Positions 1-57,412 of a stretch of DNA of 64,000 bases are shown in pieces; position 1 is the stretch's first letter; the number at the start of each line of letters is the position of its first letter. The stretch is from assembly GCA_964187785.1 (NCBI GenBank), contig OZ076409.1, positions 71,922,001 through 71,986,000 of the forward strand. Direction: 5' to 3'. The notes beneath the pieces are model-generated. The model did not search any database. It was not told the origin of the DNA and saw only the letters and a program-made list of their open reading frames with translations. A program made the position numbers and the translations under genes. The DNA comes from Amphiscolops sp. MND2022 (lineage: Eukaryota).

Positions 1-1496
1 GGTTGGGTCCTGCCGGACGTCAAATAGTGTGAAACATCCAGTAGGAAACGGCGACATAAATCAGCGATTTTAAAATTTAACCGTTAGAATTCGGACTTGG
101 AGTGCATGCGGCCCCAAAATGCCCATACGAATCGAAGTTCCTGCTGACGTTAAGCGATAAAAACATTTTATAAAAAGTTATGGCCCATTTTACGTTCAAC
201 TATAAGGGTAAAATGAGGAAAATTTTTACAAAGTCGCTGATAACTCAAAATACATTAACTTTTGGACTTTGACTGTGAAACAAGCTTAGAACCTTCATTT
301 CGTGGCTGTGGCATTGCACTGAACACAAAAGATGTAAAGTTTTTACATTTTTCGAAAATTCGACATTTTTGATTTTTTTTTCACTACTATCAGTACACTA
401 TATGTCAAAAACACCTCTGAAAAAAATTATTATTTGCTTAAAATTGGAAACCTTGGTATCCATGGTTTCTGTCGGAACCTACTCGCTGCCAAACACCCAA
501 CAGTTTGCATCCAATGTGAATTTAAAATTTTTTTCGAGGTCATAAGGGTTTCACAAGGTTTTCATAACTTAGTATTAAACTACAAACTGGTCATTTTCAA
601 CATAATATCTTTGTCGAGGCATGTCGGATATAGTCCTATTGCTCACGAACGGTCCTACTGGCAACGTAATAACCATTTATAGAAATGTAAAGTTATAAAA
701 AAATTTTTCACCCGGTCTTCAGTCATTTTTCAGTCATTCGGAACTTAACTTAGAAAAATTTCGACCAAAATATCCATTTTTTGTCAGGTCGAAAAATCAA
801 ATTCAGATTTTTAAGCAAAATTATTAACTCTGACGTAACCCATGGGGCCCATGATACTCAAAACAACGATTGACACTGGTATCAATGGCTCCAATAACAT
901 ATGAGTCGCGATAAGAGGTTATTTTGAGCATTACGTCTCAATTGAGGTAAAGATCTCGCAAGCCAGCGATCACTGTGAAATGTGATTTCATCAAAAATTT
1001 ACTCTTTTTTGTCAATCACTATGTGCACAGAATGCGTAGGGTGCGTTTCAGCACTATAATGAGGTTATTGAAGGCATCGAGTTGCTCAAGGGGTGGTATG
1101 AGACATTTTTGTCCCATATACTACTGTATTTTCCAAAATTTTTAGCCCAATATCTTCAAATACAAACTTGACAAAATACTTTCAACTACTTTATTCAAAG
1201 GTTACAATATAGATGAACACTGTGGTTGATCAGAAACTTTCATCTCTTTCGTTTTCCGAAATATTTCCCTTCGCATGTGTAATTCGTAGCAGAAAAAAAA
1301 ATCGAAACTGAAAAATACGCAATTTTGCTAATATAGAATCGCAATGATTGTGCCTAAAAACTCTTTAAACACTTCTAACGCAACCTTACGCACCCAAAAT
1401 GATCGAATATGCTATTCACAATGGTGACATGTGCTCTTTCTACGATCCTGGCTGGACAAGGTTTGCATATTTTTCAAGTACCTGTCAGCTAAATCT

Positions 1497-1546
1497 TGTG
1501 ATAGCCTTTTCAGTTGGCCTTGTGTCAACTTGGGAAGGCTATCACA
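1497..1546. repeat. Internal long palindrome P1 (all A units; family B at 4156-4198 and 7524-7567)
   Basis: TGTGATAGCCTT..AGTTG..CAACT..AAGGCTATCACA. Confidence 0.85.
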
Positions 1547-1836
1547 TCAAAAAACCATCAATAAAAATAATTTTTGTTTATTGGATCTTACAGTCGAAAC
1601 TTTTTTTCGTGATTCTATACTACCGTTAGTATATTTCATCAGGTCACCTTACGATTGCATTCAGTCTTTGATAAAAACCTATGAACTCAAAGTCACATTT
1701 ATATATTTTTTGCCCAACAAAATCATCAAAAATATCTAAAATACATAAAATAGAGTCTTTAACTTTTTTACGTTTCAAGTTTCTGCCGTTATTATGCCAA
1801 TCAACGTCCTAGAGCCACATCCTGCCACATACTGTA

Positions 1837-1946
1837 CAACGCCACATAGTGTTGCGACGTGCACAGTCTGTGGGCATGCCGAGGCATGCCCTTCGACGAC
1901 GTATGCCGAATACCGCGGGCCTACGCCCGCGCTCCCCGGCTAGGTG
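1837..1946 (+). other. Conserved right-end module (representative of 25 copies): direct repeats, palindrome, two hairpins, GCTAGGTG
   Basis: CAACGCCACAT..CRACGYSCAY..GTCYGT RGGCATGCCRAGGCATGCCY TTCGACGACG-like module present before every junction in all four families. Confidence 0.9.
1872..1891. promoter_or_regulatory. p53-family response-element match GGGCATGCCG AGGCATGCCC (representative; one per unit, e.g. 4658-4677, 5939-5958, 7912-7931, 16637-16656, 40572-40591, 56056-56075, 62101-62120)
   Basis: 19/20 match to RRRCWWGYYY x2 with zero spacer and CATG cores; binding is not demonstrated. Confidence 0.5.
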
Positions 1947-4734
1947 GCGGGGGGCTGTCCCCAATAGAATATAGTGAGGTAGGGTAGGGTTCCCTACCGA
2001 ACATTCAGTACTGAAAGACTCTTGTAGTATGAAAATTTTTCGATGTTTTGAGACCGATTTCGGATTCCACCCGTCAGAAGTTTATGATTTTTTGGCCCCC
2101 ACCCAGATTTTGGGCACTGATCGCCCCCCACCAGGTTCCATACCCGTGGTTTCGTTGTGACGGGTACACGAGCGACCGTTAGGGGTCAATCAGGGGGTAA
2201 AATTTATAAAAGTGTGAATAACTTTTCCCCCCGTCGTTTTAGCAGGTCCGGTCACTAGTAAAGGTTTGTTGGGCATCATGCAGTGGGTAAGGGGGGCCAA
2301 ACAAAAATTTTCTATCTTGCACCGTTACGGACTTGGCCCCCCGCCCAAACCGCTATTTTACCGGAAATTGCACTTTTTGACCGGGAAGGAGTCGTCTGAG
2401 CGCGGAGTCATTTGGTAATGTTTTGTAGAGCATCTGGAGACGTGGTGGGGGACATGTAGTTTGCCGACCCCAGTTTACCCCTCGGACGGGAAATGACCGT
2501 TATGTGAGTTTCAAAAATGCCCCCCTCCAATTTTCCCCGCAATTTCCGGTGTGAAGGAGTCGGAATAGCGTGTCGAGTGCTATATATCAAAAGTAGCTTT
2601 AAACAAGGACCTATCAGAAACATGTGGTTTGGGACCCTTTGAACGGACCCGTTAGCCGGAAATAGGGTGACCGCCTCCTCTTTTTGGTGGTAAAACCGTA
2701 AAACGGGCATTAAAGTGTAATTATCTCGTGAACGCGTGGAGCAATCGTGTCCATCACTCCTACAAGGTTTCATACCCATGACATGGTGCCTTCAGGGGGG
2801 CAAACAGATCAGCGCTATCTATCACCGTTACGGACTTTGCCCCCCAGCCTAACCGCTATATTACCGGAAATTGCCCTTTTTGACCGGGAAGGAGTCGTCT
2901 GAGAGTGGAGTCGTTAAGTAATGTTTTGTAGAGCATCTAGAGACGTGTTGGGGGACATGTAGTTTGCCGACCCCGGTTTACCCCTCGGACGGGAAATTAC
3001 CGTTATGTGAGTTTTAAAATTGACCCCCTTCAACTTTCCCCGTTATTTCCGATGTGAAGGAGTGAGGGTAGCGCGTCGGGTGTCATATATCAAAAGTAGG
3101 TTAAGACAAGGACCAACCGGGAACATGTTGTTTGGGACCCTCTGGCCCAACCCGTTAGCCGTTATAAGGGTGATCGCCTCCTTTTTTTACTGCTAAAACC
3201 GGAAAACGGGCATTGAGGGGTAAATATCTCGTGAACGCGTGGAGCAATCGTGTCCATCACTACTACAAGGTTTCATACCCATGATACGGTGCCTTCAGGG
3301 GGGAAAACAGATTACCGCTATATATCACCGTTACGGACTTGGCCCCCCAGCCTAACCGCTATGTGACCGGAAATGTCATTTTTTGAGCCAAAAGGGTTGG
3401 TCCCAGCGTGGGAACGTCAGGTAACTTTATGTAGAACTCAATGAGACGAGTTGGGGGATATAGTTTTAGTCACCCCCCGTTGACCCGTTGGACCGGAAAC
3501 GACCGTTATGTAGTGAAAAATGTTATTTTTATACTTTTTGAAGGCCATTTAGGGCAGGAAGTATCGGTAATATGTCTTTGGACAGTATACAATGAAAGTT
3601 TTGGTGTGAAACGAGCAATCTGAAATAACCGTTATTATGATTCGGAAGTCACACTAACAGCGAAAATGACCGTTATGTAGTGAAAATTTTTTTCACAATT
3701 TTTTTTATTTTCGATAGGTCCTTCAAGCCAGGAAGTAGCTGTATTAGGTCTTTGGTCACTTTATGATGATTGTGGTGTTGTGAGATGACCGTACGAACTT
3801 GACCGTTATAATGCCCCTGAAGTTGCGGCGGCACGAGAAATTTCAGAAAGTTTGTCTTTTCTGTGTTTTGTTGGAATAAACATGTAATTTCATCAAACCA
3901 AAGTGCATTCAGGGTGTCAGAAAGCTTCAAGAAAAGAATTTGACAGGAAACATGAGATGAGAAATAGGAAAATGCCACGGAAATCCAACCCGTTGGGAAG
4001 TAAAGATAATAAATTGGTTTGGAAGTGCCAATCGACGTGTAATTGCGGATCATAGCTACGATATTGTCTCTTTTGTTTCTTTTTGAAGACTTTGAACATT
4101 TTCACTTTATCAGCTTGAAGTTTCGACTCCATTAACTCAATAACCGTTACAATATGATAGCCCTCAAGTTGACCTTGTGTCAACTTGAAAGGGCTATCCT
4201 TTCACAACTGCGCAGCGACAGTGTGATTGAGTGTTTTTGTTATTATCCATAGCCAATTTGAACTTCAACAAAAGTTTAACCATAGTTAAAAAATTTCATA
4301 TGATTCTTTTAAAAGGATAAGTAAGAAACAAATGTTTGACAAAAAACTTTCAACCTTTAATTTGTGGACTGAATATCAGGAAAACCATGTCTCCTAACGT
4401 TGTTGGATGAAATTCAACATGATTCTTTTAATAGGATAACAAAGTTTGACAACATATTTTTTTATATTCTTTCGTTGGTGCTCTACATTTTAGGAAAACG
4501 AATTTTCCAACAAATATTGTTGGCTGATGCCTGTTCATAGTGGCTTGAAAATTTCACCAACTGTAATGCTTTTTATCAAAGGTGAAACCGCTCCTTACCG
4601 TCGCATAATGTAATTCAAGCCGACGCCCACATGCCAACATCAACGCCCACCGTCCGTAGGCATGCCGAGGCATGCCTTTCGACGACGTATGCCAAATCAC
4701 GCCCCTGCGAGGTCACTAAAGCGGTAGCGGCTAG
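1944..4734 (+). mobile_element. Unit 2, family B (2791 bp, GC-richer, internal 503-bp repeats)
   Basis: Bounded by two GCTAGGTG junctions; body unrelated to A but homologous to unit 4; conserved end modules present. Confidence 0.7.
2290..3520 (+). repeat. ~503-bp tandem repeat, ~2.4 copies (family B)
   Basis: ACCGTTACGGACTT anchor at 2321, 2824, 3327. Confidence 0.85.
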
Positions 4735-6012
4735 GTGGTCGTTAGCATGGGATTTTCTTTATGAGCGTAGTCCACTTTTTTTAGGCCGGGGTAGGGTCCC
4801 GGGCCGTTACCAATTTCTTACGGAGGAAAAATGTGAAAATCTGCGAGTTTAAAAAATTGGCCCGTACGATTTGGCTGAAAATTGGCATACAGCATCGTCT
4901 TGGTAAACAAATGACTTTGTCCTAGTGACATTTTGCCCAGAAAATTCAAAAAGTTGGTCAAATTGAAAATTTTTTGACCGTCTAAGGCTAAAATTTGACT
5001 TTTTCGCTTTTTTTGGTCAATTTCCTCAGAACTGGTTGATTTTGGTGAAGTAAGTCATAAGAAGTTATAAGGTCTGCAAATAGCATTCAATTGGCTTGCA
5101 TAATCAGATTTTGTCAAAAGTGTTTAGTTTTTTCAAAATTTCACACTTTTTTTTCATTTCAGTGTTTTTTGATACAATTTATTGAATTTTTACTAAGTTC
5201 CACTAAATATTTTTAAAATGTTTTTAAAAAACCTTTTTTTGCACGTTTTTGATGTTTTTTGCTCTCCCATATAGGTTTTCGCATACGGGGAACCTGAATC
5301 TGACAACGAAATAATTTTATTCCGCAGTTCAACTTACGCCATTTTTAATAGTGAAAAATCACTCATTTTCAATCTAACGAGTGAAAATATCAGAATTTAA
5401 AAACCTAAAGTTGAGTTTAAGGCGACTTACAGGTAGAAACAAATGCTCAGAAACAAACTGATTTCTTGTATTAGCTAAAGAAAGCCTTTAAAATTCTTTT
5501 TACTTTCTTTAAATCAAAATTCGACACTTTTCATGAAATTTGTCAGTGGAAAAAATTTATCATTTTTTAAATTAAAAACTTGCTTTGTTGGTCATTTCCG
5601 TTAGTCATTAGTAGCTGTGTAATGCTCCAAAGCCTTTCAAGTTCTTTTGACCCTATTTGAAAATTTTCGATACTGCATAATCAATCCGAGAGAACGAAAC
5701 AGTTGTGTACATTCCATCTCCCTCTTGGGGGAGATGAGAATGTACTTCCTAAAGTCCAGGTACTACAGATCATATTTGGTTTTATGCGACGCCCTTTAAG
5801 CTAGTGCATATAAATACAAGTTGTTTGGCTGGATTTTGCTTCTGACTTGACGTATACTGTACGTTTGGTACTGACAATACCCATCATTTACATAACAAAC
5901 GTCAACGCCACATACCCTTACCAACGCCCATAGTCCGTAGGCATGCCGAGGCATGCCTTTCGACGACGCGCGCCAAACACAAGCGCGCCCGCACTTTTGC
6001 GGTAGCGGCTAG
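4735..6012 (+). mobile_element. Unit 3, family C (1278 bp)
   Basis: Near-identical to unit 8 and homologous to unit 24; bounded by junction 8-mers. Confidence 0.75.
5707..5745. repeat. Internal long palindrome P2 (all C units and complete D units, e.g. 15742-15780, 39683-39721)
   Basis: GTACATTCCATCTCCC..GGGAGATGAGAATGTAC. Confidence 0.85.
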
Positions 6013-7985
6013 GTGCGGGGGGGAAACCCCAACAAAATTTTTGGAGGATTCGGGTAGGGTCCTGAATCCGAGTTCAGTGCTGCCAGCTTTCGTTAAGAAA
6101 ATTTGGATAGGATTCGGGATCTCGTGATCTAACCATAGGATTTTAAAGTTGGAGCGGCCCCCACCAGATTTTCCGAAAATTAGCGCCCCCCACCGGGTTC
6201 CAGCGTGATTGAAATATTTTGACGGGGTACACGGGCGACCGTTAGGGGTCATTTTGGGGGTAAAATTTATATCCGGTCGCATAACTTTTTTCCTGTTGGT
6301 TTAAAACTTTGGGACCCTGCTAAAAGTTTCTTGACCTTGTTGCAGTGGCTCCGGAGGTCCAAACCAAATTTTTCTATCTTGAAGCTATCTCCAAGTACCC
6401 CCCCGCCCAAAACGTTATTTTTCCGGAAACGCAGGTTTTTGACCCGGAAGGAGTCGTCGGAGCGCGGGGTCGTTAGGTGATGTATTGGAAACGGCCTTGA
6501 GACGAAGTGGGGGACATGCAGTTTGCCAACCCCAGTTTACCCCCCGGACGGGAAATGACCGTTATATGAGCGGGAAAAATGCCCCCCTCCACGTTTTACC
6601 GCTATTTCCGGTGTGAAGGAGTGGGAGTAGCGCGTCGGGTGCCATATATCAAAAGTAGGTTTAAACAAGGACCTATCGGAAACATGTGGTTTGGGACCCC
6701 CTGGACCAACCCGTTAGCGGGAAATGGGGCTTCCGCCTCCTTTTTTTACGGTTAAAAACGGAAAATGGGCATTGAGGGGTAAATATCTCGTGAACGCGTG
6801 GAGCTACGGTGTCCTTCACTACTACAAGGTTTCATACCCATGATATGGTGCCTTCAGGGGGGCAAACAGATTTCCGCTATCTATCACCGTTACGGACTTG
6901 GCCCCCCAGCCTAACCGTTAAGTGACCGGAAATGTCATATTTTGAGCCCAAAGGGTCGGTCTCAGCCAGGGAACGTTAGGTAACTTATTGTAGTACTCAT
7001 TGAGACGAGTTGGGGGACATAGTTTCAGTCACCCCCCGTTACCCCTTAGGACCGGAAATGACCGTTATGTGAGTAAAATTGCCATTTTTGTCCTATTTGA
7101 AGGGCATTTAGATGCGGAAGGAGTGGTAATAGGTGCTTGGACACTGTATGATGTAAGGGAGGACGTTAGGCGAGCATTCGGACATAACCGTTATGTTGAC
7201 CCTAAAGTCCCCCTGGTACCGTAAACGACCGGAAATGGTCAAATTTTGTGTCTATTGGGTACAAATGTTGGGTATTTTGTAGATAAAAGTATCTATTAGA
7301 TGTTTCGACGGTCTGCAGTAGTGAACATAGTCATGAAACCTTGTGGGGGGTAACGGTATATAGCACCGGAAGTCCAAACCGTTGGTGACAGGATAGGTTT
7401 TTTGGTTTTAAAATGTCTTTCGGCGTACCTTTGTCGACTATTAAGGACTATTTTTAAAAATTAAAGATTTTCCATATAGTTTCAGAGACTCCGAAACCTC
7501 AACCAACATAACCGTTACCTCATGATAGCCTTTCAAGTTGGCCTGGTGTCAACTTGGAAGGGCTATCCTTCAAAAATCGTCAATCGAGTGTGTTTTTGGG
7601 TATGTTTGTATCATTTTAGAATCAATTAGAGCTTCAAGAAAAGTTTCCCAACGACAAAAACTAATTCGTGAAGATTCCGTTACTAGAATTATAGTTAGCA
7701 AATTGTTGAGAAAAATGTTTTTTTTCCAAATTAAATGTGTCCTAAATGCCAGGAAACCTATTTAACTAACAAATGGTATTGATTGGAATGTATGTAACAG
7801 ATTTATAAAAGTTCAAATTGATTATTAAGTTTCATTATGGAAGCTGAAACGTAATATTTTAGTTTAATTAACGTCAACGCCACATACTTTTTATCAACGC
7901 CCACCGTCTGTGGGCATGCCGAGGCATGCCCTTCGACGACGTATACCAAATACATACCTAACGACGCCCGTACATTCCGGGCTAG
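6013..7985 (+). mobile_element. Unit 4, family B variant (1973 bp)
   Basis: Diverged homolog of unit 2 with one fewer 503-bp repeat and a different distal region. Confidence 0.7.
6360..7080 (+). repeat. ~503-bp tandem repeat, ~1.4 copies (family B variant)
   Basis: Homologous to the unit 2 repeat; boundaries approximate. Confidence 0.7.
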
Positions 7986-9969
7986 GTGGGCGGGGGTAAT
8001 TCCCCAACAAAAATTACGGCCGGCGGGTTGGGTCCTGCCGGACGTCAAATAGCAAAGAATATCTAGTAGGAAACGGCGACACAGAATCGCGATTTTTAAA
8101 TCTAACCACAATTTTTTGGACTTGGAGTGCATGCGGCCCTGAAATGCCCATACGAATCGAAGTTCCTGCTGACGTTAAGCGATTGAAATAATATATAAAA
8201 AGTTATGGCCCATTTTTCACTCACAAAGAAGGGTAAAATGAGGAAATTTTCAACAAAGTCGCTGATAACTCAAAATGTGTTAATTTTTGGACATTGACTG
8301 TGAAACAAGCTTGGAACCTTCATTTCGTGGCTGTGGCATTGCACTGAACACAAAAGATGTAAAGTTTTTACATTTTTTGAAAATTTGACATTTTTGAAAT
8401 TTTTTTCACTACTATCAGTACCCCATATGTCAAAAACGCCTCAGAAAAAAATTTTTATTTGCTTTAAATTGGAAACCTTGGTTTCCATGGTTTCTGTCGG
8501 AACCTACTCGCAGCCAAACACTCAACAGTTTGCATCCAATGTGAAAATAAAATTTTTTTCGGGGTCATAAGCGTTTCACAAGGATTTCTCAACTTAGTAT
8601 TAATTTACAAAATGGTCATTTTGAACACAATATTTTCATCGAGGCTTGTCGGCTATAGTCTTAATGTTATAGAACGGTCCCACTGGCAACGTAGGAACCA
8701 TTTATAGTAATAGAAAGTATTTAAAAAATATTTTCACCCGGTCTTCAGTCATTTTTCAGTCATTCGGAACTTAACTTAGAAAAATTTCGACCAAAATACC
8801 CATTTTTTGTCAGGTCGAAAATTCAAAATCAGATTTTTAAGCAAAATTATTAACTCTGACGTAACCCATGGGGCCCATGATACTCAAAACAACGATTGAC
8901 ACTGGTATCAATGGCTCCAATAACATATGAGTCGCGATAAGACGTTATTTTGAGCAATACGTCTCAATTGAGGTAAAGATCTCGCAAGCCAGCGATCACT
9001 GTGAAATGTGATTTCATAAAAAATTTACTCATTTTTGTCAATCACTATGTGCACAGAATGCGTAGGGTGCGTTTTAGCACTATAATGAGGTTTTTGAAGG
9101 CATCGAGTTGCTCAAAGGATGGTATGAGACATTTTTGTCCCATATACTACTGTATTTTCCAAAATTTTTAGCCCAATATCTGGAAATACAAACTTGACAA
9201 AATACTTTCAACTACTTTATTCAAAGGTTACAATATAGATGAACACTGTGGTTGATCAGAAACTTTCATCTCTTTCGTTTTCCGAAATATTTCCCTTCGC
9301 ATGTGTTACATTTGTAGCAGAAAAAAAATCGAAACTGAAAAATACGCTATTTTGCTAATATGGAATCGCAATGATTGTGCCTAAAAACTTTTTAAATACT
9401 TCTAACGCAACTGTACAGACCCAAAATGATTGAAAATGCCATTCACAATGCTGACATGTGCTCTTTCTACGATCCTAACTGGACAAGTTTTGCATATTTT
9501 TCAAGTACCTGTTAACTGAATCTCGTGATAGCCTTTTAAGTTGGCCTTGTGTCAACTTGGGAAGGCTATCACATCAAAAAATTTTCAACAAAAATACCTT
9601 TTGTTTATTGGAAATGACAGTCGATATATAATTTCGTGATTCTATACTACCGTTAGTACCTTCCATTAAGTCACCTGACGATTGCATTCAGTCTTTGATA
9701 AATACCTATGAACTCGAAGTCATATTTATAATTTTTGTGCTAAAAATAAACATCAAAATTATCCAATTTATTTAAAATTGAGTCTTTACCGTTTTTGTTT
9801 TACTTTTTCTACTGTTATTTAGGCCCATCAACTTCCTACAGCCACGCTCTCTGTCATTAGTACAACGCCACATAGTGTTGCGACGTGCACAGTCTGTGGG
9901 CATGCCGAGGCATGCCCTTCGACGACGTATGCCGAATACCGCGGGCCTACGCCCGCGCTCCCCGGCTAG
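7986..9969 (+). mobile_element. Unit 5, family A (1984 bp), head h2, tail t1
   Basis: Colinear with other A units; bounded by junctions. Confidence 0.75.
8020..8041 (+). other. Conserved left-end hairpin with T(A/T/C)GGGT loop (representative; also 1978-1998, 4784-4805, 6046-6069)
   Basis: Stem sequence differs by family but stays paired; loop conserved. Confidence 0.75.
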
Positions 9970-11954
9970 GTGGGCGGGGGTAATTCCCCAACAAAAATTA
10001 CGGCCGGCGGGTTGGGTCCTGCCGGACGTCAAATAGCAAAGAATATCTAGTAGGAAACGGCGACACAGAATCGCGATTTTTAAATCTAACCACAATTTTT
10101 TGGACTTGGAGTGCATGCGGCCCTAAAATGCCCATACGAATCGAAGTTCCTGCTGACGTTAAGCGATTGAAATAATATATAAAAAGTTATGGCCCATTTT
10201 TCACTCACAAAGAAGTGTAAAATGAGGAAATTTTTAACAAAGTCGCTGATAACTCAAAATGTGTTAATTTTTGGACATTGACTGTGAAACAAGCTTGGAA
10301 CCTTCATTTCGTGGCTGTGGCATTGCACTGAACACAAAAGATGTAAAGTTTTTACATTTTTTGAAAATTCGAAATTTTTGAAATTTTTTTCACTACTATC
10401 AGTACCCCATATGTCAAAAACGCCTCAGAAAAAATTTTTTATTTGCTTTAAATTGGAAACCTTGGTATCCATGGTTTCTGTCGGATCCTACTCACAGTCA
10501 AACACCCAACAGTTTGCATCCAATGTGGAATTAAAAATTTTTTCGGGGTCATAAGCGTTTCACAAGGATTTCTCAACTTAGTTTCAATTTACAAATTGGT
10601 CACATTGAACACATTATTTTCATCGAAGCGCGTCAGATACCGCCCTAAAGCTCACGAATGGTCCTACTGGCAACGTAGCAACCATTTATAGTAATATAAA
10701 AGATTAAAAAAATTTTTTCACCCGGTCTTCAGTCATTTTTCAGTCATTCGGAGCTTAACTTAGAAAAATTTCGACCAAAATACCCATTTTTTGTCAGGTC
10801 GAAAAATCAAATTCAGATTTTTAAGCAAAATTATTAACTCTGACGTAACTCATGGGGCCCATGATACTCAAAACAACGATTGACACTGGTATCAATGGCT
10901 CCAATAACATATGAGTCGCGATCGGACGTTATTTTGAGCAATACGTCTCAATTGAGGTAAAGATCTCGCAAGCCAGCGATCACTGTCAAATGTGATTTCA
11001 TCAAAAATTTACTCATTTTTGTAAATCATTATGTGCACAGAATGCGTAGGGTGCTTTTCAGCACTATAATGAGGTTTTTGAATGCATCGAGTTGCTCAAG
11101 GGGTGGTACGAGACATTTTTGTCCCATATACTACTGTATTTTCCAAAATTTTTAGCCCAATATCTGGAAATACAAACTTGACAAAAAACTTTCAACTACT
11201 TTATTCAAAGGTTACAATATAGATGAACACTGTGGTTGATCAGAAACTTTCATCTCTTTCGTTTTCCGAAATATTTTCCTTAGCATGTGTTATATATGTA
11301 TCAGAAAAAAAATCGAAACTGAAAAATACGCTATTTTGGTAATATAGAATCGCAATGATTGTGCCTAAAAACTCTTTAAACACTTCTAACGCGACCTTAC
11401 GCACCCAAAATGATCGAAAATGCTATTCACAATGGTGACATGTGCTCTTTCAACGATCCTGGCTGGACAAGGTTTGCATATTTTTCAAGTACCTGTCAGC
11501 TGAATCTTGTGATAGCCTTTTAAGTTGGCCTTGTGTCAACTTGGGAAGGCTATCACATCAAACAACCATCAACAAAAATAATTTTTGTTTATTGGATATT
11601 ACAGTTGATACCTTATTTCGTGATTCTATACTACCGTTAGTATATTCCATGAGGTCACCTTACGATTGCATTCAGACTTTGATGAAAACCTATGAACTCA
11701 AAGTCACATTTATATATTTTTTGCCCAAAAAAATCATCAAAAACATCTATTATATATAAAATTGAGTCTTTAACTTTTTTACGTTGCAAGTTTCTGCCGT
11801 TATTAGGCCAATCAACGTCCTAGAGCCACATCCTGCCACATACTGTACAACGCCACATAGTGTTGCGACGTGCACAGTCTGTGGGCATGCCGAGGCATGC
11901 CCTTCGACGACGTATGCCGAATACCGCGGGCCTATGCCCGCGCTCCCCGGCTAG
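9970..11954 (+). mobile_element. Unit 6, family A (1985 bp), head h2, tail t1
   Basis: Very similar to unit 12. Confidence 0.75.
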
Positions 11955-12769
11955 GTGGGCGGGGGTAATTCCCCAACTAAAAAATCGGCCGGCGGGTAGG
12001 GTCCTGCCGGCCGTCCAAAATCAAAATTATACTAGTAGAAAACGGCCGGTCAAACGAGCTATTTTTTTATTTAACCGTTAGAATTTGGGTTTAGATTGCA
12101 TGCGGCCATGAAATGGCCATACGAATCGAAGTTCCTGCTGACGATTTGCGATTGAAACACTTTATAAAAAGTTATGGCCAATTTGTCATTCACCTAGAAG
12201 GGCAAAATGAGGAAAATTTTAACAAAGTCGCTGATAACTCAAAATGTAATAATTTTTGGACTTTGACAGTGAAACAAGCTTGGAACTGTCATTTCGTGGC
12301 TGTGGCATTGCACTGAACACAAAAGATGTAAAGTTTTCACATTTTTTGAAAATTCGACATTTTTGAATTTTTTTCACTACTATCAGTACACTATATGTCA
12401 AAAACGCCTCTGAAAAAAATTTTTATTTGCTTAAAATTAGAAACCTTGGTATCCATGGTTTCCGTCAGTACCTAATCGCTGCCAAACGCTCAACAGTTTG
12501 CATCCAATGTGAAAATATAATTTTTTTCGAGGTCATAGGTGTTTCACAAGGATTTCTCAACTTAGTATCTATTTACAAATTGGTCATTTTGAACACATTA
12601 TTTTCATCGAAGCGTGTCAGATACCACCCTAATGCTCACAAATGGGCCTACTGGCAACGTTGGAACCATTTTTAGTAATAGAAAGTATTAAAAAAATATT
12701 TTCACCCGGTCTTCAGTCATTTTTCAGACATTCGGTACTTAACTTAGAAAAATTTCGCATCAAAAACCC

Positions 12770-13950
12770 ATATTTGGTAGGGTCGAAAATTGAAATTCAG
12801 TTTTTTATGCAAAATGATTAACTCTGACGTAACCAGTGGAGCCCATGATACTCAAAAACACGATTGGGACTGGTATCAGTGGCTCCAATAACATATGAGC
12901 CGCGATAAGACGTTATTCAGAGCAAACGCTCTAAATCGAAGTAAACATCTCTGAAGCCTGGGATCACAGTGAAATGTGATATCACCAAAAGTTTACTCTT
13001 TTTTGTCAATCACTATGTACACAGAGTGCGTAGGGTGAGTTTCAGGACTATAATGAGGTTTTTGAAGTAATCGCGCTGCTCAAGGGGTGGTATGAGACTA
13101 TTCTTTCCCATATACTACTACATTTCCATAAATTTGCAGTCCATTGTCTTGGAAAGATAACTTCACAAAAACAATTTTTCTACTCTATTCAGTTATTAGA
13201 ATAAAGTTGAACACTGTGGTTGATCAGAAATGCTCAATTCTTTTGGTTTTTAAAAAAATTCCTTCGCATTCGTTACATTTGTGGAAGGAAGGTTATCAGT
13301 AGCTCCAAAAAAAACGAAATTTAGCACGAACAGACATGCAACGATGCAAAGCAAAAACGTTTTTACAACTTCCGACGTCATTATTTTACCCAAGAAGTTC
13401 GAAAATATCATTCGCAATGCTGTCATTCGCTATATATACGATCGCGGTCAATTTACAAACATTTAGATTTCATTGTTCTGCTTGAAAACCAATTTTTGTC
13501 AGGTCGAAATTTTAAATTTTGCCTGGGTAGCAATACCCTTCACGCTGAAGTAAACAGTGGGGCCCAAGTTACTCAAAAACAAGAAAGAGACTGCTACAAT
13601 ATGTCCTAATAACATATGGACCACGATAGTACGTTTTTCACACAAAAAACTCTCATCCGAAGTAAATATGTTGAAAGCTTTTAATCACCGTGAGAAGTGA
13701 TTTCATCAAAAAATAACTCTTTTTTGTCAATCACTGTTTACACAGAATTTGTAAAGTTAGTTTGAGTCATGAAATGAGGCTTTACCGTAATATGGGTTGC
13801 TCAAGGTGTTATATAAGACAAAAACTTCCTCTTTACTACTAGCTTCTTCAAATATTTCAACCCTTTGTCACAATAAGTTAATATTCAAAATCTCTTTGAA
13901 ATGTATCTTTATGTTGGGGTGAAGTCTAAGAACAATAACTATGATCGAAG
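12770..13950 (+). repeat. Old ~720-bp-period internal duplication in family D
   Basis: Block TTT(G/T)GT..GGTCGAAA .. GCCCA..TACTCAAAAAC .. ATCAC.GTGA.A.GTGAT .. GCTCAAGG.GT occurs from ~12773 and again from ~13493. Confidence 0.75.
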
Positions 13951-14159
13951 AATGATAGTACTGGTGTTTGAACCATGTCCGGATGAACAAATCACAAAAT
14001 CATCAAAAAATTGTTCCCTTTTTTGGTTATTTTGGCAGTACTAAAAATGTTAGCTGATAAATAATTTTTTCGATGGCACCATTGGATTCCTCTCAAAAAG
14101 TTGGTTATATGACCTGTGTAATAACCCCGTATCTTTTCAATTTAAATATATTTAAAAAG

Positions 14160-15530
14160 CCAACTATTTTGACCAAAATCCTAAAAATCATACCATTTCC
14201 TAAAAATTTTCAAATGCACCCCATTTGACGTATAAGATAAGCACAGAAAACTATCATATACCGATCAACTCTACTCCCATTGTAGATTATTATAATTTTG
14301 TTTAGAATGAATTTTGATGGATATTAAAAAAATTTTGAACCCTCCAAAAATGGGCCAAAATTACACGAAAAAATTGACCTTAAAATACCAAAATGTCAAA
14401 AAATCATCAAAACCACGGCTTCTTGGGGTTCTATTAACTCCGCGTGGTCCACAGAGTATGCTAAAACAGGATTTACCCGTTTTTGAGCAATATGTGAAAA
14501 AGCCGACATTTTTGGGAAAGAAAAACATACCATTTCCTAAAAAAATTCAAATGCACGTCATTTGCCGTATTAGAATAGCACAGAAAACTATCACATACCA
14601 ATCAACTCTACTTTCATTGCAGATGAACAGAATTTTGTTTAGAATAAATTTTACCGGATAATAAAAAAAGTTGAATCCTTCAAAAATGGGCCAAAATTAC
14701 ACGAAAAAATGGACATTAAAAATTTAAAATGTCAAAAAATCATCAAAACAACAGCTTCTTGGGCTTCTATCAACTCCACGAGGTCCACAGAGTATGCTAA
14801 AACAGGTTTTACCCGTTTTTGAGCAATATGTGAAAAAGCCGACATTTTTGGGAAAGAAAAACATACCATTTCCTAAAAAAATTCAAATGCACGCCATTTG
14901 CCGTATGAAAATAGCACAGAAAACTATCACATACCAATCAACTCTACTTTCATTGCAGATGAACAGAATTTTGTTTAGAATAAATTTTACCGGATAATAA
15001 AAAAATTTGATTCCTTCTAAAATGGGCCAAAATTACACGAAAAAATGGACCTTAAAATTTTAAAATGTCAAAAAATCATCAAAACCACGGCTTCTTGTGG
15101 TTCTATCAACTCCACGTGGTCCACAGAGTATGCTTAACCCGGTTTTACCCATCTTTGAGCAAAATGTGAAAATACCGACATTTTTGGAAAAGAAAAACAT
15201 GCCATTTTCTAATAAATTTCAAATGCACGCCATTTGCTGTATGAGAATAACACAGAAAGCTGTCACATACCGATCAACTCTACTTCCATTGTAGATTATC
15301 AGAAGTTTGTTTAGAATAAATTTTGATGGATAATAAAAAAAATTGAATCCATCAAAAATGGGCCAAAATTACACGAAAAAATTGACCTTAAAATATCAAA
15401 ATGTCAAAAAATCATCAAAACCACAGTTTCTTGGCGTTCTATCAACTCCATATGATACCAAACCAGGTACTGCCAATCGTTTGAGTTATAATAAAAAAAC
15501 GTCTTTTTTGGCAAGAATTCCATACCATAA
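14160..15530 (+). repeat. 336-bp tandem repeat, ~4 copies (D1)
   Basis: CATRCCATTT anchor at 14189, 14526, 14862, 15198. Confidence 0.9.
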
Positions 15531-16714
15531 ATAATAATCATGTTCCATATAAGAAGCGAATCATTTCAGATATATACCCTGTTCATTTTTTTAATATTAC
15601 CGATTATTAATTTAATAGATGTTTTGAATGTGAGCTTCCTAAAAGGTTCAGGTGTGATGATACGTAAATAGAACCTTAGTTTCATCGAAATCTCAATTGA
15701 ATATGTCCAATCTTAACCATCAGATAACAAGAAACACTTAAGTACATTCCATCTCCCCATCGGGGGAGATGAGAATGTACTTTCGAGAAGCCAAATACGT
15801 CCAACATTCAAACTTTTGTAACTTTGTATGTAACTCCTGAAACGAAGAAGGAATAAAATTGTTTCTGGTACATACATGAGTCTTTACTTCAGCTTCTATT
15901 TCTGCTGAACAAAACCATTCGACTCTTTTGCCGGAGTTAAGATCGATTGTATTACCCAGTGAACAAAGGCATGACTGAAAACGTTTACTAATTTGTTCAT
16001 AATTTTCCGGCCTTCCGAAATGATGAAACGTCCACATAACTAAGATAGCAAGTGAATGACTGCGAAATGCACCTTATTAGATGAGGTAAATAACGTGTAA
16101 AACTCTCCTTTATCCTAACATGAGGTTGAGTAATGATCATTTGAGAATAGTTTGATATGTGAATACAATAGTATAAAACCAGTACATTTTATATGAATAA
16201 CGCCGTGGAAAGCGTTCAGAAAGGACAGTAGGCTTGTTTGGAACATGTATGTGTGGTGTCCCTTGGTGGCGTTCGCTTAGTGTATATGTCGAGGGGTATT
16301 CGAGTTGTTATGATAGAATTTACACACAAGTGTTTTGCTTTTTGGTTTTTTTAAAATGTCGTTAAGTACCTGCATTCTATCCCCTTCTCAGAGATGACGT
16401 GAAGTTACGTTTGCTAAATAAATGTCATCGAAAGATCACACTCCCGACGAAATTAACTATCTTAACACGTGTTTAGAATTTTGAATAAACAACCGTATAA
16501 GATTTTTATATTTCATTGAGTTTGATGGAGTCTTTTGTTCTTCTCACTACTATTTCAACCAATACACATATCCGTTACCATATCACATGTCTTCATTAGT
16601 ACAACGCCACATAGCGTTCCGACGCCCACAGTCTGTGGGCATGCCGAGGCATGCCCTTCGACGACGTATGGCAAATGGAGCCATGCCCGCCGTCTTTACG
16701 GCGGTAGCGGCTAG

Positions 16715-17992
16715 GTGGTCGTTAGCATGGGATTTTCTTTATGAGCGTAGTCCACTTTTTTTAGGCCGGGGTAGGGTCCCGGGCCGTTACCAATTTCTTA
16801 CGGAGGAAAAATGTGAAAATCTGCGAGTTTAAAAAATTGGCCCGTACGATTTGGCTGAAAATTGGCATACAGCATCGTCTTGGTAAACAAATGACTTTGT
16901 CCTAGTGACATTTTGCCCAGAAAATTCAAAAAGTTGGTCAAATTGAAAATTTTTTGACCGTCTAAGGCTAAAATTTGACTTTTTCGCTTTTTTTGGTCAA
17001 TTTCCTCAGAACTGGTTGATTTTGGTGAAGTAAGTCATAAGAGGTTATAAGGTCTGCAAATAGCCATCAATTGGCTTGCATAATCAGATTTTGTCAAAAG
17101 TGTTTAGTTTTTTCAAAATTTCACACTTTTTTTTCATTTCAGTGTTTTTTGATACAATTTATTGAATTTTTACTAAGTTCCACTAAATATTTTTAAAATG
17201 TTTTTAAAAAACCTTTTTTTGCACGTTTTTGATGTTTTTTGCTCTCCCATATAGGTTTTCGCATACGGGGAACCTGAATCTGACAACGAAATAATTTTAT
17301 TCCGCAGTTCAACTTACGCCATTTTTAATAGTGAAAAATCACTCATTTTCAATCTAACGAGTGAAAATATCAGAATTTAAAAACCTAAAGTTGAGTTTAA
17401 GGCGACTTACAGGTAGAAACAAATGCTCAGAAACAAACTGATTTCTTGTATTAGCTAAAGAAAGCCTTTAAAATTCTTTTTACTTTCTTTAAATCAAAAT
17501 TCGACACTTTTCATGAAAGTTGTCAGTGGAAAAAATTTATCATTTTTTAAATTAAAAACTTGCTTTGTTGGTCATTTCCGTTAGTCATTAGTAGCTGTGT
17601 AATGCTCCAAAGCCTTTCAAGTTCTTTTGACCCTATTTGAAAATTTTTGATACTGCATAATCAATCCGAGAGAACGAAACAGTTGTGTACATTCCATCTC
17701 CCTCTTGGGGGAGATGAGAATGTACTTCCTAAAGTCTAGGTACTACAGATCATATTTGGTTTTATGCGACGCCCTCTATGCTAGTGCATATAAATACAAG
17801 TTGTTTGGCTGGATTTTGCTTCTGACTTGACGTATACTGTACGTTTGGTACTGACAATACCCATCATTTACATAACAAACGTCAACGCCACATACCCTTA
17901 CCAACGCCCATAGTCCGTAGGCATGCCGAGGCATGCCTTTCGACGACGCGCGCCAAACACAAGCGCGCCCGCACTTTTGCGGTAGCGGCTAG
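16715..17992 (+). mobile_element. Unit 8, family C (1278 bp)
   Basis: Near-identical to unit 3. Confidence 0.75.
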
Positions 17993-19984
17993 GTGGGCGG
18001 GGGTAATTCCCCAACAAAAAAATCGGCCGGCGGGTCGGGTCCTGCCGGCCGTCCAAAATCAAAATCCTCCTAGTAGAAAACGGCATGTCAAACGAGCTAT
18101 TTTTTTATTTAACCATACGAATTTCACCATTTTTTGCATGCGGCCCTGAAATGGCCATACGAGACGAAGTTCCTGCTGACGTTTTGCGATGTAAATGTTT
18201 TATATAAAGTTATGGCCGATTTGTCATTCACCTAGAAGGGTAAAATGAGGAAAATTTTAACAAAGTCGCTGATAACTCAAAATGTGTTAATTTTTGGACT
18301 TTGACTGTGAAACAAGCTTGGAACCTTCATTTCGTGGCTGTGGCATTGCATTGAACACAAAAGATGTAAGGTTTTTACATTTTTTGAAAATTCGACATTT
18401 TTGAAAATTTTTTCACTACTATCAGTACCCCATATGTCAAAAACACCTCAGAAGAAAAGTTTTATTTGCTTTAAATTGAAAACCTTGGTAGCCATGGTTT
18501 CTGTCGGAACATACTCGCTGCCAAACACCCAACAGTTTGCATCCAGTGTGAATTTAAAAATTTTTTCGAGGTCTTAGGTGTTTCACAAGGATTTCTCAAC
18601 TTAGTATCAAATTACAAATTGGTCATTTTAAACACATTATTTTCATCGAAGCGTGTCAGATACCGCCCTAATGCTCACGAACGGGCCTACTGGCAACGTT
18701 GGAACAATTTATCGTAATAGAAAGTTTTAAAAAAAATTTTTCGCCCGGTCTTCAGTCATTTTTCACACATTCGGAACTTAACTTAGAAAAATTTCAACCG
18801 AAAAACCCATTTTTTGTCAGGTCGAAAATTCAAAGTCAGCTTTTTAAGCAAAATTATCAACTCTGACGTAACCAGTGGGGCCCATGATACTCAAAACAAC
18901 GATTGGGGTTGGTACCAATGGCTCCAATAACATATGAGTCGCGATAAGACGTTATTTTGAGCAATATGTCTCAATTGAGTTAAAGATCTCGCCAACCAGT
19001 GATCACTGTGAAATGTAAATTCAATAAAAATTTACTCATTTTCGTCAATCACCATGTGCACAGAGTGCGTAGGGTGAGTTCCAGCACTATAATGAGGTTT
19101 TTGAAGGCATCGGGTTGCTCAAGGGGTGGTATGAGACATTTTTTTCCTATATACTACTGTATTTTCCAAAAGTTTTAGCCCATTATCTGGAAAAACTAAC
19201 TTGACAAAATACTTTCAACAACTTTTTTCAAAGGTTACAATGTAGATGAACCCAGTGGTTGATCAAAAATTTTCATCTCTTTCGGTTTCCGAAATAATTC
19301 CCTTCGAATGTGTTACATTTGTAGCAGGAAAAAAACCGAAACTAAAAAATACGCGATTTTGCTGAGATAGAATCGCAATGGTTGCCCCTAAAATCTCTTT
19401 AAATACTTCTAACGCGACCTTATGGACCCAAAAAGATTGAAAATGCCATTCACAATGCTGACATGTGCTCTTTCGACGATCCTGGCTAGACAAGTTTTGC
19501 ATATTTTTCAAGTACCTGTTAACTGAATTTTGTGATAGCCTTTTAAGTTGGCCTTGTGTCAACTTGGGAAGGCTATCACATCAAAAAACTTTCATCAAAA
19601 ATACTTTTTGTTTATACAATAATGTAGTCGATAGTTATTTTCGTGATTTTACACTACCGTTAGTACCTTCCGCCAGGTCAGCTGACGATTGCATGCTGTC
19701 TTTGATAAAAACGTATGAACACCAAGAAAATTTTGTTGTATTTTTGTTGAAGAAAAGTATTAATAAATAATAAAAATATAATTCTAACCTTAAACAACTA
19801 TAAATTTGCTTAACCGTTATTAGTCCTACCACCTATCATCAGCCTATGCCATGGCCCGGTGATTAGTAGTACAACGCCACATAAAGTAGCGACGCCCACA
19901 GTCTGTGGGCATGCCGAGGCATGCCCTTCGACGACGTATGGCAATTTTAGCGTAGCCCGCGGTCACTACCGCGGTAGCAGCTAG
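17993..19984 (+). mobile_element. Unit 9, family A (1992 bp), head h4, tail t6
   Basis: Near-identical to unit 14. Confidence 0.75.
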
Positions 19985-21971
19985 GTGGGCGGGGTAATTC
20001 CCCAACAAAAATTACGGCCGGCGGGTTGGGTCCTGCCGGACGTTCAAATAGCGCGAAGCATCTAGTAGAAAACAAGGAGTCCTGAAACAGCGATTTTAAA
20101 ATTGAACCGTTAGAATTTGGTTTTAGATTGCATGCGGCCCTAAAATCCCCATACGAATGGAAGTTCCTGCTGGCGTTAAGCGATTGAAATAATATATAAA
20201 AAGTTATGGCCCATTTTTGGGTCACCGAGAAGGTCAAAATGAAGAAAATTTTAACTAAGTTGCTGATAACTCAAAATGTGTTAATTTTTGGACTTTGACT
20301 GTGAAACAAGCTTGGAACCTTCATTTCGTGGCTGTGGCATTGCACTGAACACAAAACATGTAAAGTTTTCACATTTTTTGAAAATTCGACATTTTTGAAT
20401 TTTTTTTCACTACTATCAGTACACTATATGTCAAAAACACCTGTGAAAAATTTTTTCATTTGCTTAAATTTAGAAACCTCGGTATCCATGGTTTCCGTCA
20501 GTACCTACTCGCTGCCAAACACTCAACAGTTTGCATCCAATGTGAAAATAAATTTTTTTTCGAGGTCTTAGGTGTTTCACAAGGATTTCTCAACTTAGTA
20601 TCAATTTACAAATTGGTCATTTTGAACACATTATTTTCATCGAAGCGTGTCATATACCGCCCTAATGCTCACGAACGGGCCTACTGGCAACGATGGAACC
20701 ATTTATAGTAATAAAAAGTTTTAAAAAAATTTTTTCACTCCGTCTTCAGTCATTTTACACACTTTCGGAACTTAACTTAGAAAAATTTCAACCAAAAACC
20801 CATTTTTTGTCAAGTCGAAAATTCAAATTCAGCTTTTTAAGCAAAATAAATAAATCTGACATAACCAGTGGGGCCCATGAAACTCAAAACCACGATTGAG
20901 ACTGGTATCAATGGCTCCAATAACATATGAGTCGCGATAAGACGCTATTTTGAGCAAAACATCTCAATTGATGTAAAGATCTCGCAAGCCAGCGATCACT
21001 GTGAAATGTGATTTCATCAAAAATTTACTCTTTTTTGTCAATCACTATGTGCACAGAATGCGTAGGGTGCGTTTCAGCACTATAATGAGGTTTTTGAAGG
21101 CATCGAGTTGCTCAAGGGGTGGTATGAGACATTTTTGTCCCATATACTACTGTAGTTTCCAAAATTTTTACCCCAATATCTGAAAATACAAACTTGACAA
21201 AATACTTTCAACTACTTTATTCAAAGGTTACAATATAGATGAACACTGTGGTTGATAAGAAACTTTCATCTCTTTCGTTTTCGGAAATATTTCCGTTCGC
21301 ATGTGTTACATTCATAGCAGAAAAAAAATCGAAACTGAAAATACGCTATTTTGCTGATATAGAATCGCAATGATTGTGCCTAAAAACTCTTTGAACACTT
21401 CTAACGCAACCTTACGCACCCAAAATGATCGAAAATGCTATTCACAATGGTGACATGTGCTCTTTCTACGATCCTGGCTGGACAAGGTTTGCATATTTTT
21501 CAAGTACCTGTCAGCTAAATCTTGTGATAGCCTTTTCAGTTGGCCTTGTGTCAACTTGGGAAGGCTATCACATCAAAAAACCATCAACAAAAATAATTTT
21601 TAAATATTGGATCTTACATTCGATACTTTTTTTCGTGATTCTATACTACCGTTAGTATATTTCATCAGGTCACCTTACGATTGCATTCAGTCTTTGATAA
21701 AAACCTATGAACTCAAAGTCACATTTATATATTTTTTTTGCCAGAAAATAACATCAAAAATATCTAAAATATATAAAATAGAGTCTTTAACATTTTTACG
21801 TTTCAAGTTTTTGCCGTTATTAGGCCAATCAACGTCCTAGAGCCACATCCTGCCACATACTGTACAACGCCACATAGTGTTGCGACGTGCACAGTCTGTG
21901 GGCATGCCGAGGCATGCCCTTCGACGACGTATGCCGAATACCGCGGGCCTACGCCCGCGCTCCCCGGCTAG
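19985..21971 (+). mobile_element. Unit 10, family A (1987 bp), head h5, tail t1
   Basis: Near-identical to unit 21. Confidence 0.75.
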
Positions 21972-56133: not shown

Positions 56134-57412
56134 GTGGTCGTTAGCATGGGATTTTCTTTATGAGCGTAGTCCACTTTTTTTAGGCCGGGGTAGGGTCCCG
56201 GGCCGTTACCAATTTCTTACGGAGGAAAAATGTGAAAATCTGCGAGTTTAAAAAATTGGCCCGTACGATTTGGCTGAAAATTGGCATACAGCATCGTCTT
56301 GGGAAACAAATGACTTTGTCCTAGTGTCATTTTGCCCAGAAAATTCAAAAAGTTGGTCAAATTGAAAATTTTTTGACCGTCTAAGGCAAAAATTTGACAT
56401 TTTCGCTTTTTTTGGCCAATTTTCTTAGAATTGGTTGATTTTGGTGCAGTGAGTCATAAGAGGTTATAAGGTCTGCAAGTAGCCATCAATCGGCTTGCAT
56501 AATCAGATTTTGTCAAAAGTGTTTAGTTTTTTCAAAAATTCACACTTTTTTTTTATTTCAGTGTTTTTTGATAATTTTTATTGAATTTTTTCTAAGTTTC
56601 ACTAAATTTTTTAAAAATGTTTTAAAACACTTTTTTTGCACGTTTTTGATGTTTTTCGCTCTCCCATATAGATTTTCGCATACGGGGAAACTGAATCTGG
56701 CAACGAAATAACTTTATTCTGCAGTTCAACTTTCGCCATTTTTAATTGTTGAAAAATCACTCATTTTCAACCTAACGAGTGAAAATATCAGAATTTAAAA
56801 ACATAAAGTTGAGTTTAAGGAGACTTACAGGTGGAAACAAATGCTCAGAAACAAATAGATTTCTTGTATTAGCCAAAGAAAGTCTTTAAAAATTCTTTTT
56901 ACTTTCTTTAAATCAAATTTCAACTATTTTTAAGAAATTTGGCAGTGAAAAAAAATTATAATTTTTAAATTAAAAAAAACTTGCTTTGTTGGTCATTTCC
57001 GTTTGTCATTATTAGCTGTGTAATTCACCAACACGTTTCAAGTTATTTTGACCCAATTTGAAAATTTTTGATACTGCATAATCTATCCGAGAGAACGAAA
57101 CAGTTGTGTACATTCCATCTCCCTCCTGGGGGAGATGAGAATGTACTTGCCAAAGTCCAGGTACTACAGACCATATTTGTTTTATGCGACGCCGTCTATA
57201 CTAATGCACATGAATACAAATTGTTTGTCTGAATTTTACTTCTGACTTGACGTATGCTGTACGTTTGGTACTGACAATACCCATCATATACATAACAAGC
57301 GTCAACGCCACATACCCTTACCAACGCCCATAGTCCGTAGGCATGCCGAGGCATGCCTTTCGACGACGCGCGCCAAACACAAGCGCGCCCGCACTTTTGC
57401 GGTAGCAGCTAG
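56134..57412 (+). mobile_element. Unit 24, family C (1279 bp), diverged copy
   Basis: Colinear with units 3/8, with many substitutions in the middle and conserved ends. Confidence 0.75.

What the first reader, a model, noticed from the sequence alone, without database searches (positions are those of the whole stretch)
1872..1891. Every unit carries a near-perfect p53/p63 response element ~50 bp from its right end
Seen: GGGCATGCCG AGGCATGCCC in A, D and unit 4; AGGCATGCCG AGGCATGCCT in C and unit 2 (4658, 5939); GGGCATGCCA AGGCATGCCC at 56056. It is among the most invariant stretches across unrelated families. Established: p53-family proteins bind RRRCWWGYYY x2, best with CATG cores and no spacer. 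These sites match 19/20, and the observed variants do not reduce the match. The paired G..C to A..T change also preserves the palindrome, so a hairpin or a dimeric transposase site is an equally valid reading. Inference: 25 sites in 64 kb could couple mobilisation or transcription to DNA damage or germline p63, or act as a p53 sink.
Basis: partly seen in the sequence, partly recalled or inferred. Interest (0 to 1): 0.72.

Follow-up and report, generated by a model that had tools for sequence, protein, structure and literature searches.

The report
p53-like site in shuffling repeat ends
A near-perfect p53-type DNA motif really does sit near one end of every complete unit in a long row of gene-less mobile-element-like repeats, but it is the core of a longer frozen palindrome that more likely serves the elements' own copying machinery, and a role for p53 remains an untested, interesting possibility.

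Summary
Observation confirmed. There are 25 sites at 19/20 to the p53 consensus, one per complete right end, 52-59 bp before the junction GCTAGGTG. The window is a head-to-tail array of 26 non-coding units from four families. Near-identical units have different neighbours, so whole units move as modules. A fifth family in a metagenome contig has the same ends.

The 20-mer is the centre of a 36-40 bp frozen dyad. Its flanks, which p53 does not need, are just as invariant. The one non-consensus base is never corrected (0 of 26). Other frozen palindromes without a p53 motif lie inside the units. I therefore read it as most likely an end-recognition site of a Helitron-like rolling-circle element that inserts at its own junction (0.5).

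The p53 geometry is still unlikely by chance, even given a palindrome (3e-4), and kappaB-like sites lie across the junction. A functional or dual p53 role stays open (0.3). No autonomous element, enzyme or host identity was found.

The parts
1872..1891 (+). p53-like 20-mer; a 9-2-9 dyad made of two GGCATGCC palindromes 10 bp apart. 24 more copies, starting at 4658, 5939, 7912, 9898, 11883, 16637, 17919, 19907, 21900, 23889, 25874, 27859, 29852, 31841, 33829, 35813, 40572, 42563, 47319, 49312, 51294, 56056, 57339, 62101
1866..1905 (+). Frozen right-end block (40 nt invariant in 14 A copies; about 36 nt nearly invariant across five families); outer GTC..GAC arms extend the dyad
1837..1864 (+). 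Two upstream ACGCC(C)AC-type short direct repeats (iteron-like, about 18-19 bp apart); the second is partly complementary to the left-end start GTGGGCG of A/D units
1914..1931 (+). Terminal hairpin of variable sequence, ending 10-12 nt before the 3' end in A, C and D ends (weak or shifted in B ends and L001)
1939..1946 (+). Junction core GCTAGGTG where families switch; CTAGGTG on the + strand occurs 25 times, once per junction
1951..1960 (+). kappaB-like decamer / GGGG..CCCC element in the left end (0-1 mismatch in all five left-end types)
   Evidence: consensus recalled
1978..1998 (+). Left-end stem-loop with conserved GGGTNGGGT and stems that differ in sequence but pair in all five left-end types
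1500..1543 (+). Internal bulged palindrome of the A/B type (no p53 motif); it overlaps the other 40-nt invariant run in A
5707..5745 (+). Internal bulged palindrome of the C/D/L001 type (also 15742-15780 in D; the longest invariant run in D, 43 nt)
1..1943 (+). Unit 1, family A (about 1.99 kb; 15 units; this one is cut by the window start)
1944..4734 (+). Unit 2, family B (unit 4, 6013-7985, is its relative); has internal repeats
4735..6012 (+). Unit 3, family C (1.28 kb; also 16715-17992 and 56134-57412)
11955..16714 (+). Unit 7, family D (4.76 kb; 6 units; shares its first 1.49 kb with A; carries a 336-bp tandem array of about 4 copies)
1..64000 (+). Whole array: 26 co-oriented units in the order ABCBAADCAAAAAAAAADADAADCDD

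Best explanation
The units are non-autonomous members of one mobile-element lineage, most likely a rolling-circle (HUH, Helitron-like) one. They are mobilised in trans by an enzyme not encoded in this window. Shown: whole units are modules bounded by GCTAGGTG, co-oriented, with no extra or duplicated bases at the junction, hairpins at both ends and no transposase. Inferred: a unit is peeled off as a single strand, closed into a circle at its right-left junction, and re-inserted at a resident junction because that is the enzyme's best substrate. This builds mixed arrays. The 20-mer is the centre of a 36-40 bp dyad that this machinery reads by sequence, together with neighbouring ACGCC/ATGCC repeats; that is why every family keeps it unchanged. 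A host p53-family protein may well bind it, but p53 binding is not the main reason it is conserved.
For: Modules: U3/U8 are 99.4% identical, U9/U14 99.4, U10/U21 98.8, U18/U20 98.7, U7/U23 98.3, U1/U16 98.1, yet their neighbours differ. The segment between dyad and CTAG tracks the upstream unit (Mantel r 0.40, p 0.0005) and not the downstream one (r 0.09, p 0.056). Hairpin 10-12 nt before the CTAG end in A, C and D matches the canonical Helitron 3' end (PMC5148889). Left-end stems pair in 5 of 5 types with different sequences. Head-to-tail insertion of unlike Helitrons is described (PMC2267711). Invariance beyond the p53 footprint: positions +21 to +30 invariant in 26 of 26 ends; position 10 is G 25 times, A once, never Y. 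Non-p53 palindromes are frozen just as hard. No transposase family in 61 frames.
Against: No autonomous element or enzyme was found. The left end is GTG, not TC, and L001 ends in CGAG rather than CTRR. Helitrons are not known (recalled) to need a frozen double-stranded dyad at the right end. A plain hairpin or dimer site does not need each arm to be a palindrome at 10-bp spacing, and the chance of a p53 match given the dyad is about 3e-4 before allowing for the many motifs one might have matched. Units are also internally mosaic, so homologous recombination contributes to the array.
Confidence: 0.5

Rival explanations
1. Functional p53/p63 element, alone or with a dual role. The element keeps a high-affinity host p53-family site at its right end. 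In a circle or tandem array this site comes to lie 52-59 bp upstream of the next left end, which carries a GC box and a kappaB-like site. Together they form a junction promoter, or a licensing site, that ties transcription or mobilisation to DNA damage or to the germline.
For: 19/20 match with CATG cores and no spacer in 26 of 26 ends. Probability about 3e-4 given a dyad. All observed variants are neutral for the consensus. The dyad is frozen (11 of 12 pairs never vary) while the neighbouring hairpins covary freely, so a protein reads it by sequence. kappaB-like decamers occur in 5 of 5 left-end types, including family C where the palindrome is lost (shuffle P of up to 1 mismatch 0.04-0.08 per end; post hoc and not independent). 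Precedent: EnSpm-N6_DR, LTR10/MER61. CpG o/e is 1.0 with no CpG decay (32/146 vs 124/596), so the site is not a deamination by-product.
Against: The host is unknown, and p53 homologues were found only in Holozoa (PMC6981761). Flanks are equally invariant; the single mismatch is never corrected; positions 1 and 20 change together in 5 of 5, probably one event. There is no gene downstream in the window.
Confidence: 0.3
2. Recombinase system (Crypton/DIRS-type tyrosine recombinase, or IS607-type serine recombinase). Units excise and integrate as double-stranded circles by crossover in the 8-bp core, and the dyad (13-6-13 architecture) is a recombinase-binding or resolution site.
For: Precise, oriented junctions with a shared 8-bp core. 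The 32-bp dyad can be read as 13-bp arms around a 6-bp asymmetric spacer, the tyrosine-recombinase site layout given in PMC3212892. The core contains GG, the IS607 crossover dinucleotide (PMC10711439).
Against: Families switch at the core, not at the dyad. The core has no conserved flanking inverted repeats. Covarying hairpins at both ends point to a single-stranded stage. Animal Cryptons were reported without terminal repeats.
Confidence: 0.13
3. Complex satellite. The array is maintained by unequal exchange and gene conversion, and the shared end block is a homogenised 'conserved box' with no present function.
For: Mosaic A units, and D sharing 1.49 kb with A; very large copy numbers on long contigs.
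Against: Compensatory stems in five left-end types, frozen internal palindromes with free loops and bulges, exact single-unit shuffling between unrelated families, and the same ends on an unrelated body in L001.
Confidence: 0.07

Closest known systems
Canonical Helitrons (HLE1), including head-to-tail insertions (Du et al. 2008, PMC2267711, passages)
   Same: 3' hairpin 10-12 nt before CTAG, no extra bases at junctions, internal tandem repeats, unlike elements joined head to tail
   Different: 5' end is GTG not TC; L001 ends in CGAG; arrays of at least 26 units rather than two; structured left end; frozen 40-bp dyad
Helitron2/Helentron/HINE (PMC5148889, PMC11417382, PMC7492417; passages)
   Same: Hairpins at both ends, short asymmetric inverted repeat (terminal left, subterminal right), central tandem repeats
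   Different: The inverted repeat is only about 7 bp and degenerate in the main A subtype (published 11-16 bp); no TT insertion site
Replitrons (Craig 2023, PMC10288648; passages and section 9 part 1 of 2)
   Same: Short terminal core, right-end hairpin, oriented insertion
   Different: Described from algae, plants and stramenopiles; no Rep found here; only one core per junction
EnSpm-N6_DR of zebrafish (PMC3485254, passages); human LTR10/MER61 (table in PMC3649676)
   Same: A non-autonomous or repetitive element carrying p53 response elements
   Different: Those sites are family-specific and dispersed near genes, about 93% identical; here the site is frozen across five unrelated families at a fixed distance from the junction, in a gene-free array
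Cryptons (PMC3212892, passages)
   Same: No TIRs, short core, proposed circular intermediate
   Different: No tyrosine recombinase found; hairpin-structured ends; arrays not described in the passages read

Membership tests
p53/p63 response element | Two RRRCWWGYYY decamers, spacer 0-13 | tested here: met
   19/20, spacer 0, in 26 of 26 ends; consensus as in PMC3485254
p53/p63 response element | Host encodes a p53-family protein | not testable with these tools
   No genome is held; organisms are coded
p53/p63 response element | Conservation confined to p53-contacted positions | tested here: not met
   Flanks invariant, mismatch never corrected
p53/p63 response element | Binding and p53-dependent transactivation | not testable with these tools
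   Needs experiment
Helitron HLE1 | 3' CTRR preceded by a hairpin 10-12 nt upstream | tested here: inconclusive
   CTAG in 25 of 25 window ends, CGAG in L001; hairpin canonical in A, C, D and weak or shifted in B and L001
Helitron HLE1 | 5' TC terminus, insertion between A and T | tested here: not met
   Left ends begin GTG in all junctions; no solo insertion seen
Helitron HLE1 | RepHel transposase in an autonomous partner | not testable with these tools
   None in the window; none in the scanned collections
Helitron HLE2/HINE | 11-18 bp asymmetric/sub-terminal inverted repeats | tested here: not met
   About 7 bp, degenerate in the main A subtype
Helitron HLE2/HINE | Hairpin at each end | tested here: met
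Helitron HLE2/HINE | TT insertion site | tested here: not met
   Junction is GCTAGGTG
Replitron | Short direct terminal repeats; Y1 Rep | tested here: inconclusive
   One shared core per junction could be a collapsed direct repeat; no Rep found
Crypton / YR element | 4-6 bp terminal direct repeats; inverted arms flanking the crossover; YR gene | tested here: inconclusive
   Core present, no arms at the crossover, dyad is not the switch point, no YR found
Known RNA families (ribozymes, tRNA, snRNA arrays) | Rfam match | tested here: not met
   0 at gathering threshold in 64 kb; one chance hit, E 0.9, in 18.2 kb

The most novel reading that the evidence does not exclude
An animal cassette-shuffling element family that is licensed by the host's damage sensor. 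p53/p63 bound at the right end, with a Rel/NF-kappaB site across the junction, switches on junction transcription or excision when units are circular or tandem. Megabase arrays of interchangeable modules would then rearrange after DNA damage and titrate p53. This would be a eukaryotic parallel to SOS-controlled integrons and prophages (parallel recalled).
Probability: 0.12. Interest if true: 0.9.

Novelty: new variant of a known kind. Interest (0 to 1): 0.5.

Why it matters
p53 sites in transposons are known. A site frozen across five unrelated families at a fixed distance from a site-specific junction did not appear in my 10 paper searches (open-access library only). If p53 is part of the life cycle, it would be a direct case of a mobile element using the guardian protein as its trigger, testable with one 110-bp junction fragment. 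Even without p53, the array defines an unclassified element type that stacks at its own junction. Its ends give a ready probe for finding the missing enzyme.

Tried and rejected
Host genome: none is held.

Searches for relatives or an autonomous element:
- Viral contigs gave 0, 0 and 0 hits. Two shorter patterns gave 1 and 7 hits that lack the dyad or the other palindrome arm and were rejected as chance.
- Genome contigs gave 0 twice.
- Metagenome contigs gave 1 locus.

Sequencing runs: three with small shares (0.05-0.07), no RNA holder listed. Not used as evidence.

Earlier scan notes: nothing by place or sequence.

Rfam: nothing. Hammerhead, HDV and hairpin ribozyme cores were looked for by eye from recalled motifs and not seen.

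RNA-guided (Fanzor/IS607) homing: rejected by reasoning, because in an array the donor and empty junctions carry the same core and would self-target.

Dyad as the crossover point: rejected. CpG-deamination origin: not supported. Telomere-repeat target: no tandem telomeric repeats in the window; left as a lead.

Influenza-PB2-like Pfam hit in unit 2: probably chance (see noticed in passing).

One search used a mis-registered structure and was replaced. A Pfam scan of whole units read through their stops was not completed, so only stop-free frames of 62 aa or more from 7 of 26 units (plus one frame of unit 20) and a few short read-through stretches were scanned. An earlier count said 16 A units; the count is 15.

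Full report
OBSERVATION. The p53 consensus RRRCWWGYYY x2 matches the window 28 times at up to two mismatches. The copies are related by descent, so I tested single ends: 0 of 4000 shuffles of a 120-nt A end, and of a C end, gave such a site. Each site ends 52-59 bp before the end of CTAG in the junction motif CTAGGTG, which occurs 25 times on the + strand, once after each site.

THE ARRAY. Cutting at the junction gives 26 co-oriented units: 15 A (about 1.99 kb), 2 B, 3 C (1.28 kb) and 6 D (4.76 kb); the first and last are cut by the window ends. Apart from the right end and short internal palindromes, the A/D, B and C bodies do not align; D shares 1.49 kb with A. There is no Rfam family. There is no transposase domain in 61 stop-free frames from 8 of 26 units. 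Near-identical units have different neighbours: U3 and U8 are 99.4% identical but are flanked by B/B and D/A; U1/U16, U9/U14, U10/U21, U7/U23 and U18/U20 behave similarly, though for U18/U20 the neighbours are only different A subtypes (87-88%). The stretch between the dyad and CTAG follows the upstream unit (Mantel r 0.40, p 0.0005) and not the downstream one (r 0.09, p 0.056), so the switch point is the core GCTAGGTG and not the p53-like dyad. A units are also internally mosaic.

RELATED SEQUENCES. The single metagenome scan returned one contig, L001. It holds a fifth body with the same right-end block joined to a new left end through GCGAGGTG, so that hit is also a junction. A spurious frame shared by A and D is in the protein collection as a 98-member cluster from ENA contigs of 0.3-1.55 Mb; one member was seen on 29 contigs (15 of 98 listed). 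These may include the window's own assembly, so they show size, not independent occurrence. A B-like frame lies on a 27.5-kb ENA contig. I could not fetch that DNA.

ANATOMY OF THE ENDS. The right end carries ACGCC/ATGCC repeats at about -111, -93, -74, -64 and -47, then the dyad, then a hairpin of variable sequence ending 10-12 nt before the 3' end in A, C and D (weak in unit 2 and L001, 3 nt from the end in unit 4), then CTAG. The left end is GTG, then a GGGG..CCCC or kappaB-like decamer, then a stem-loop with conserved GGGTNGGGT whose stem differs in sequence yet pairs in all five types. Each family also has an internal bulged palindrome 280-970 bp from the right end, of one of two unrelated sequences, with free loop and bulge. 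These are the other longest invariant runs: 40 nt in A and 43 nt in D. Covarying stems at both ends point to a single-stranded stage (inference).

IS IT A p53 SITE? For: each arm is itself a palindrome at 10-bp spacing, which a hairpin does not need. The dyad is frozen (11 of 12 pairs never vary in 11 junction types) while its neighbours covary, so a protein reads its sequence. kappaB-like sites lie 8-15 nt past the junction in 5 of 5 left-end types (consensus recalled, post hoc). The region shows no CpG decay. Transposons carrying functional p53 sites are known (PMC3485254, PMC3649676; passages).

Against: in 26 ends, positions +21 to +30 and five of the six positions before the site are invariant, although p53 does not need them. 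Position 10 is G 25 times and A once, never Y. Apart from position 10, only positions 1 and 20 vary, always together. Palindromes with no p53 motif are frozen equally hard. The half-sites also read as members of the ATGCC/ACGCC repeat series. The host is unknown, and p53 homologues were reported only in Holozoa (PMC6981761, passages). My estimate (inference): binding in vitro is likely if the host is an animal, but a functional role in the element's cycle is about 0.3.

MECHANISM. Best reading (0.5): non-autonomous rolling-circle elements, mobilised in trans, circularise at the right-left junction and insert at resident junctions; the 36-40 bp dyad is an end-recognition site. Shown: modules, exact junction, end structures, lack of coding capacity. 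Inferred: enzyme class, circles, the dyad's binder. Rivals: functional or dual p53 element forming a junction promoter in circles and tandems (0.3); recombinase system (0.13); passive satellite box (0.07).

COMPARISON. It works like a Helitron at the 3' end (hairpin plus CTAG; PMC5148889, PMC11417382, passages) and like the head-to-tail Helitron pairs of maize (PMC2267711, passages). It fails HLE1 membership on the 5' TC. It fails HLE2/HINE membership on inverted-repeat length and the TT site. Replitron (PMC10288648, passages and section 9 part 1 of 2) and Crypton (PMC3212892, passages) membership is inconclusive without the enzyme. I also saw passages of PMC10711439 and PMC13085455; all other papers were seen as search listings only. 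No supplements were read, and terminal sequences in them or in Repbase could already include this family. Ten searches showed no paper describing such a multi-family array with a shared p53-like end; subscription journals are largely missing from that library.

VERDICT. This is a new variant of a known kind. Interest 0.5, carried as much by the junction-targeted array as by the p53 motif.

Noticed in passing
window 3730-3930, minus strand (unit 2): A 142-aa stop-free frame hits Pfam Flu_PB2_6th (E 8e-6, 25.9 bits, cut-off 25). PDB matches are weak (E 0.4) and no viral protein is found among 1.84 billion representatives or by word search. About half of the stretch lies in a degenerate copy of a roughly 160-bp internal repeat of family B, whose paralogues give no PB2 hit, although by eye they keep some resemblance. 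Probably chance; a captured orthomyxovirus-like fragment is not excluded.
   Followed up: partly
window 1951-1960, 4749-4758, 6021-6030, 7994-8003; L001 just after the junction: kappaB-like decamers in all five left-end types; family C keeps the match without the palindrome. A/D left ends also begin with a GC-box-like GGGCGGGG (motifs recalled).
   Followed up: partly
window 1500-1543, 5707-5745, 15742-15780; L001 567-605: Two unrelated types of internal bulged palindrome with frozen stems and free loops, one per unit. They may be second-strand priming signals or protein sites; unexplained.
   Followed up: partly
window 7903-7909 with 7986-7992 (and equivalents): The subterminal CGCCCAC can pair with the next left end GTGGGCG, closing a multi-helix fold across the junction in several junction types; it is degenerate in the main A subtype.
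   Followed up: partly
junction core, e.g. window 1939-1946: TAGGT in the core and TAGGG in the left-end loop resemble telomeric repeats (recalled), so the ancestral target could be telomeric. No tandem telomeric repeats in the window.
   Followed up: partly
whole window: CpG o/e is 1.0 with no excess CpG transitions: the array seems to have stayed unmethylated.
   Followed up: no
window 14184-15450, 38115-39451, 44864-46198, 53603-54869, 59645-60995: 336-bp tandem repeat, about 4 copies, inside each complete D unit; B units have roughly 500-bp and 160-bp internal repeats. HINE-like central repeats.
   Followed up: no
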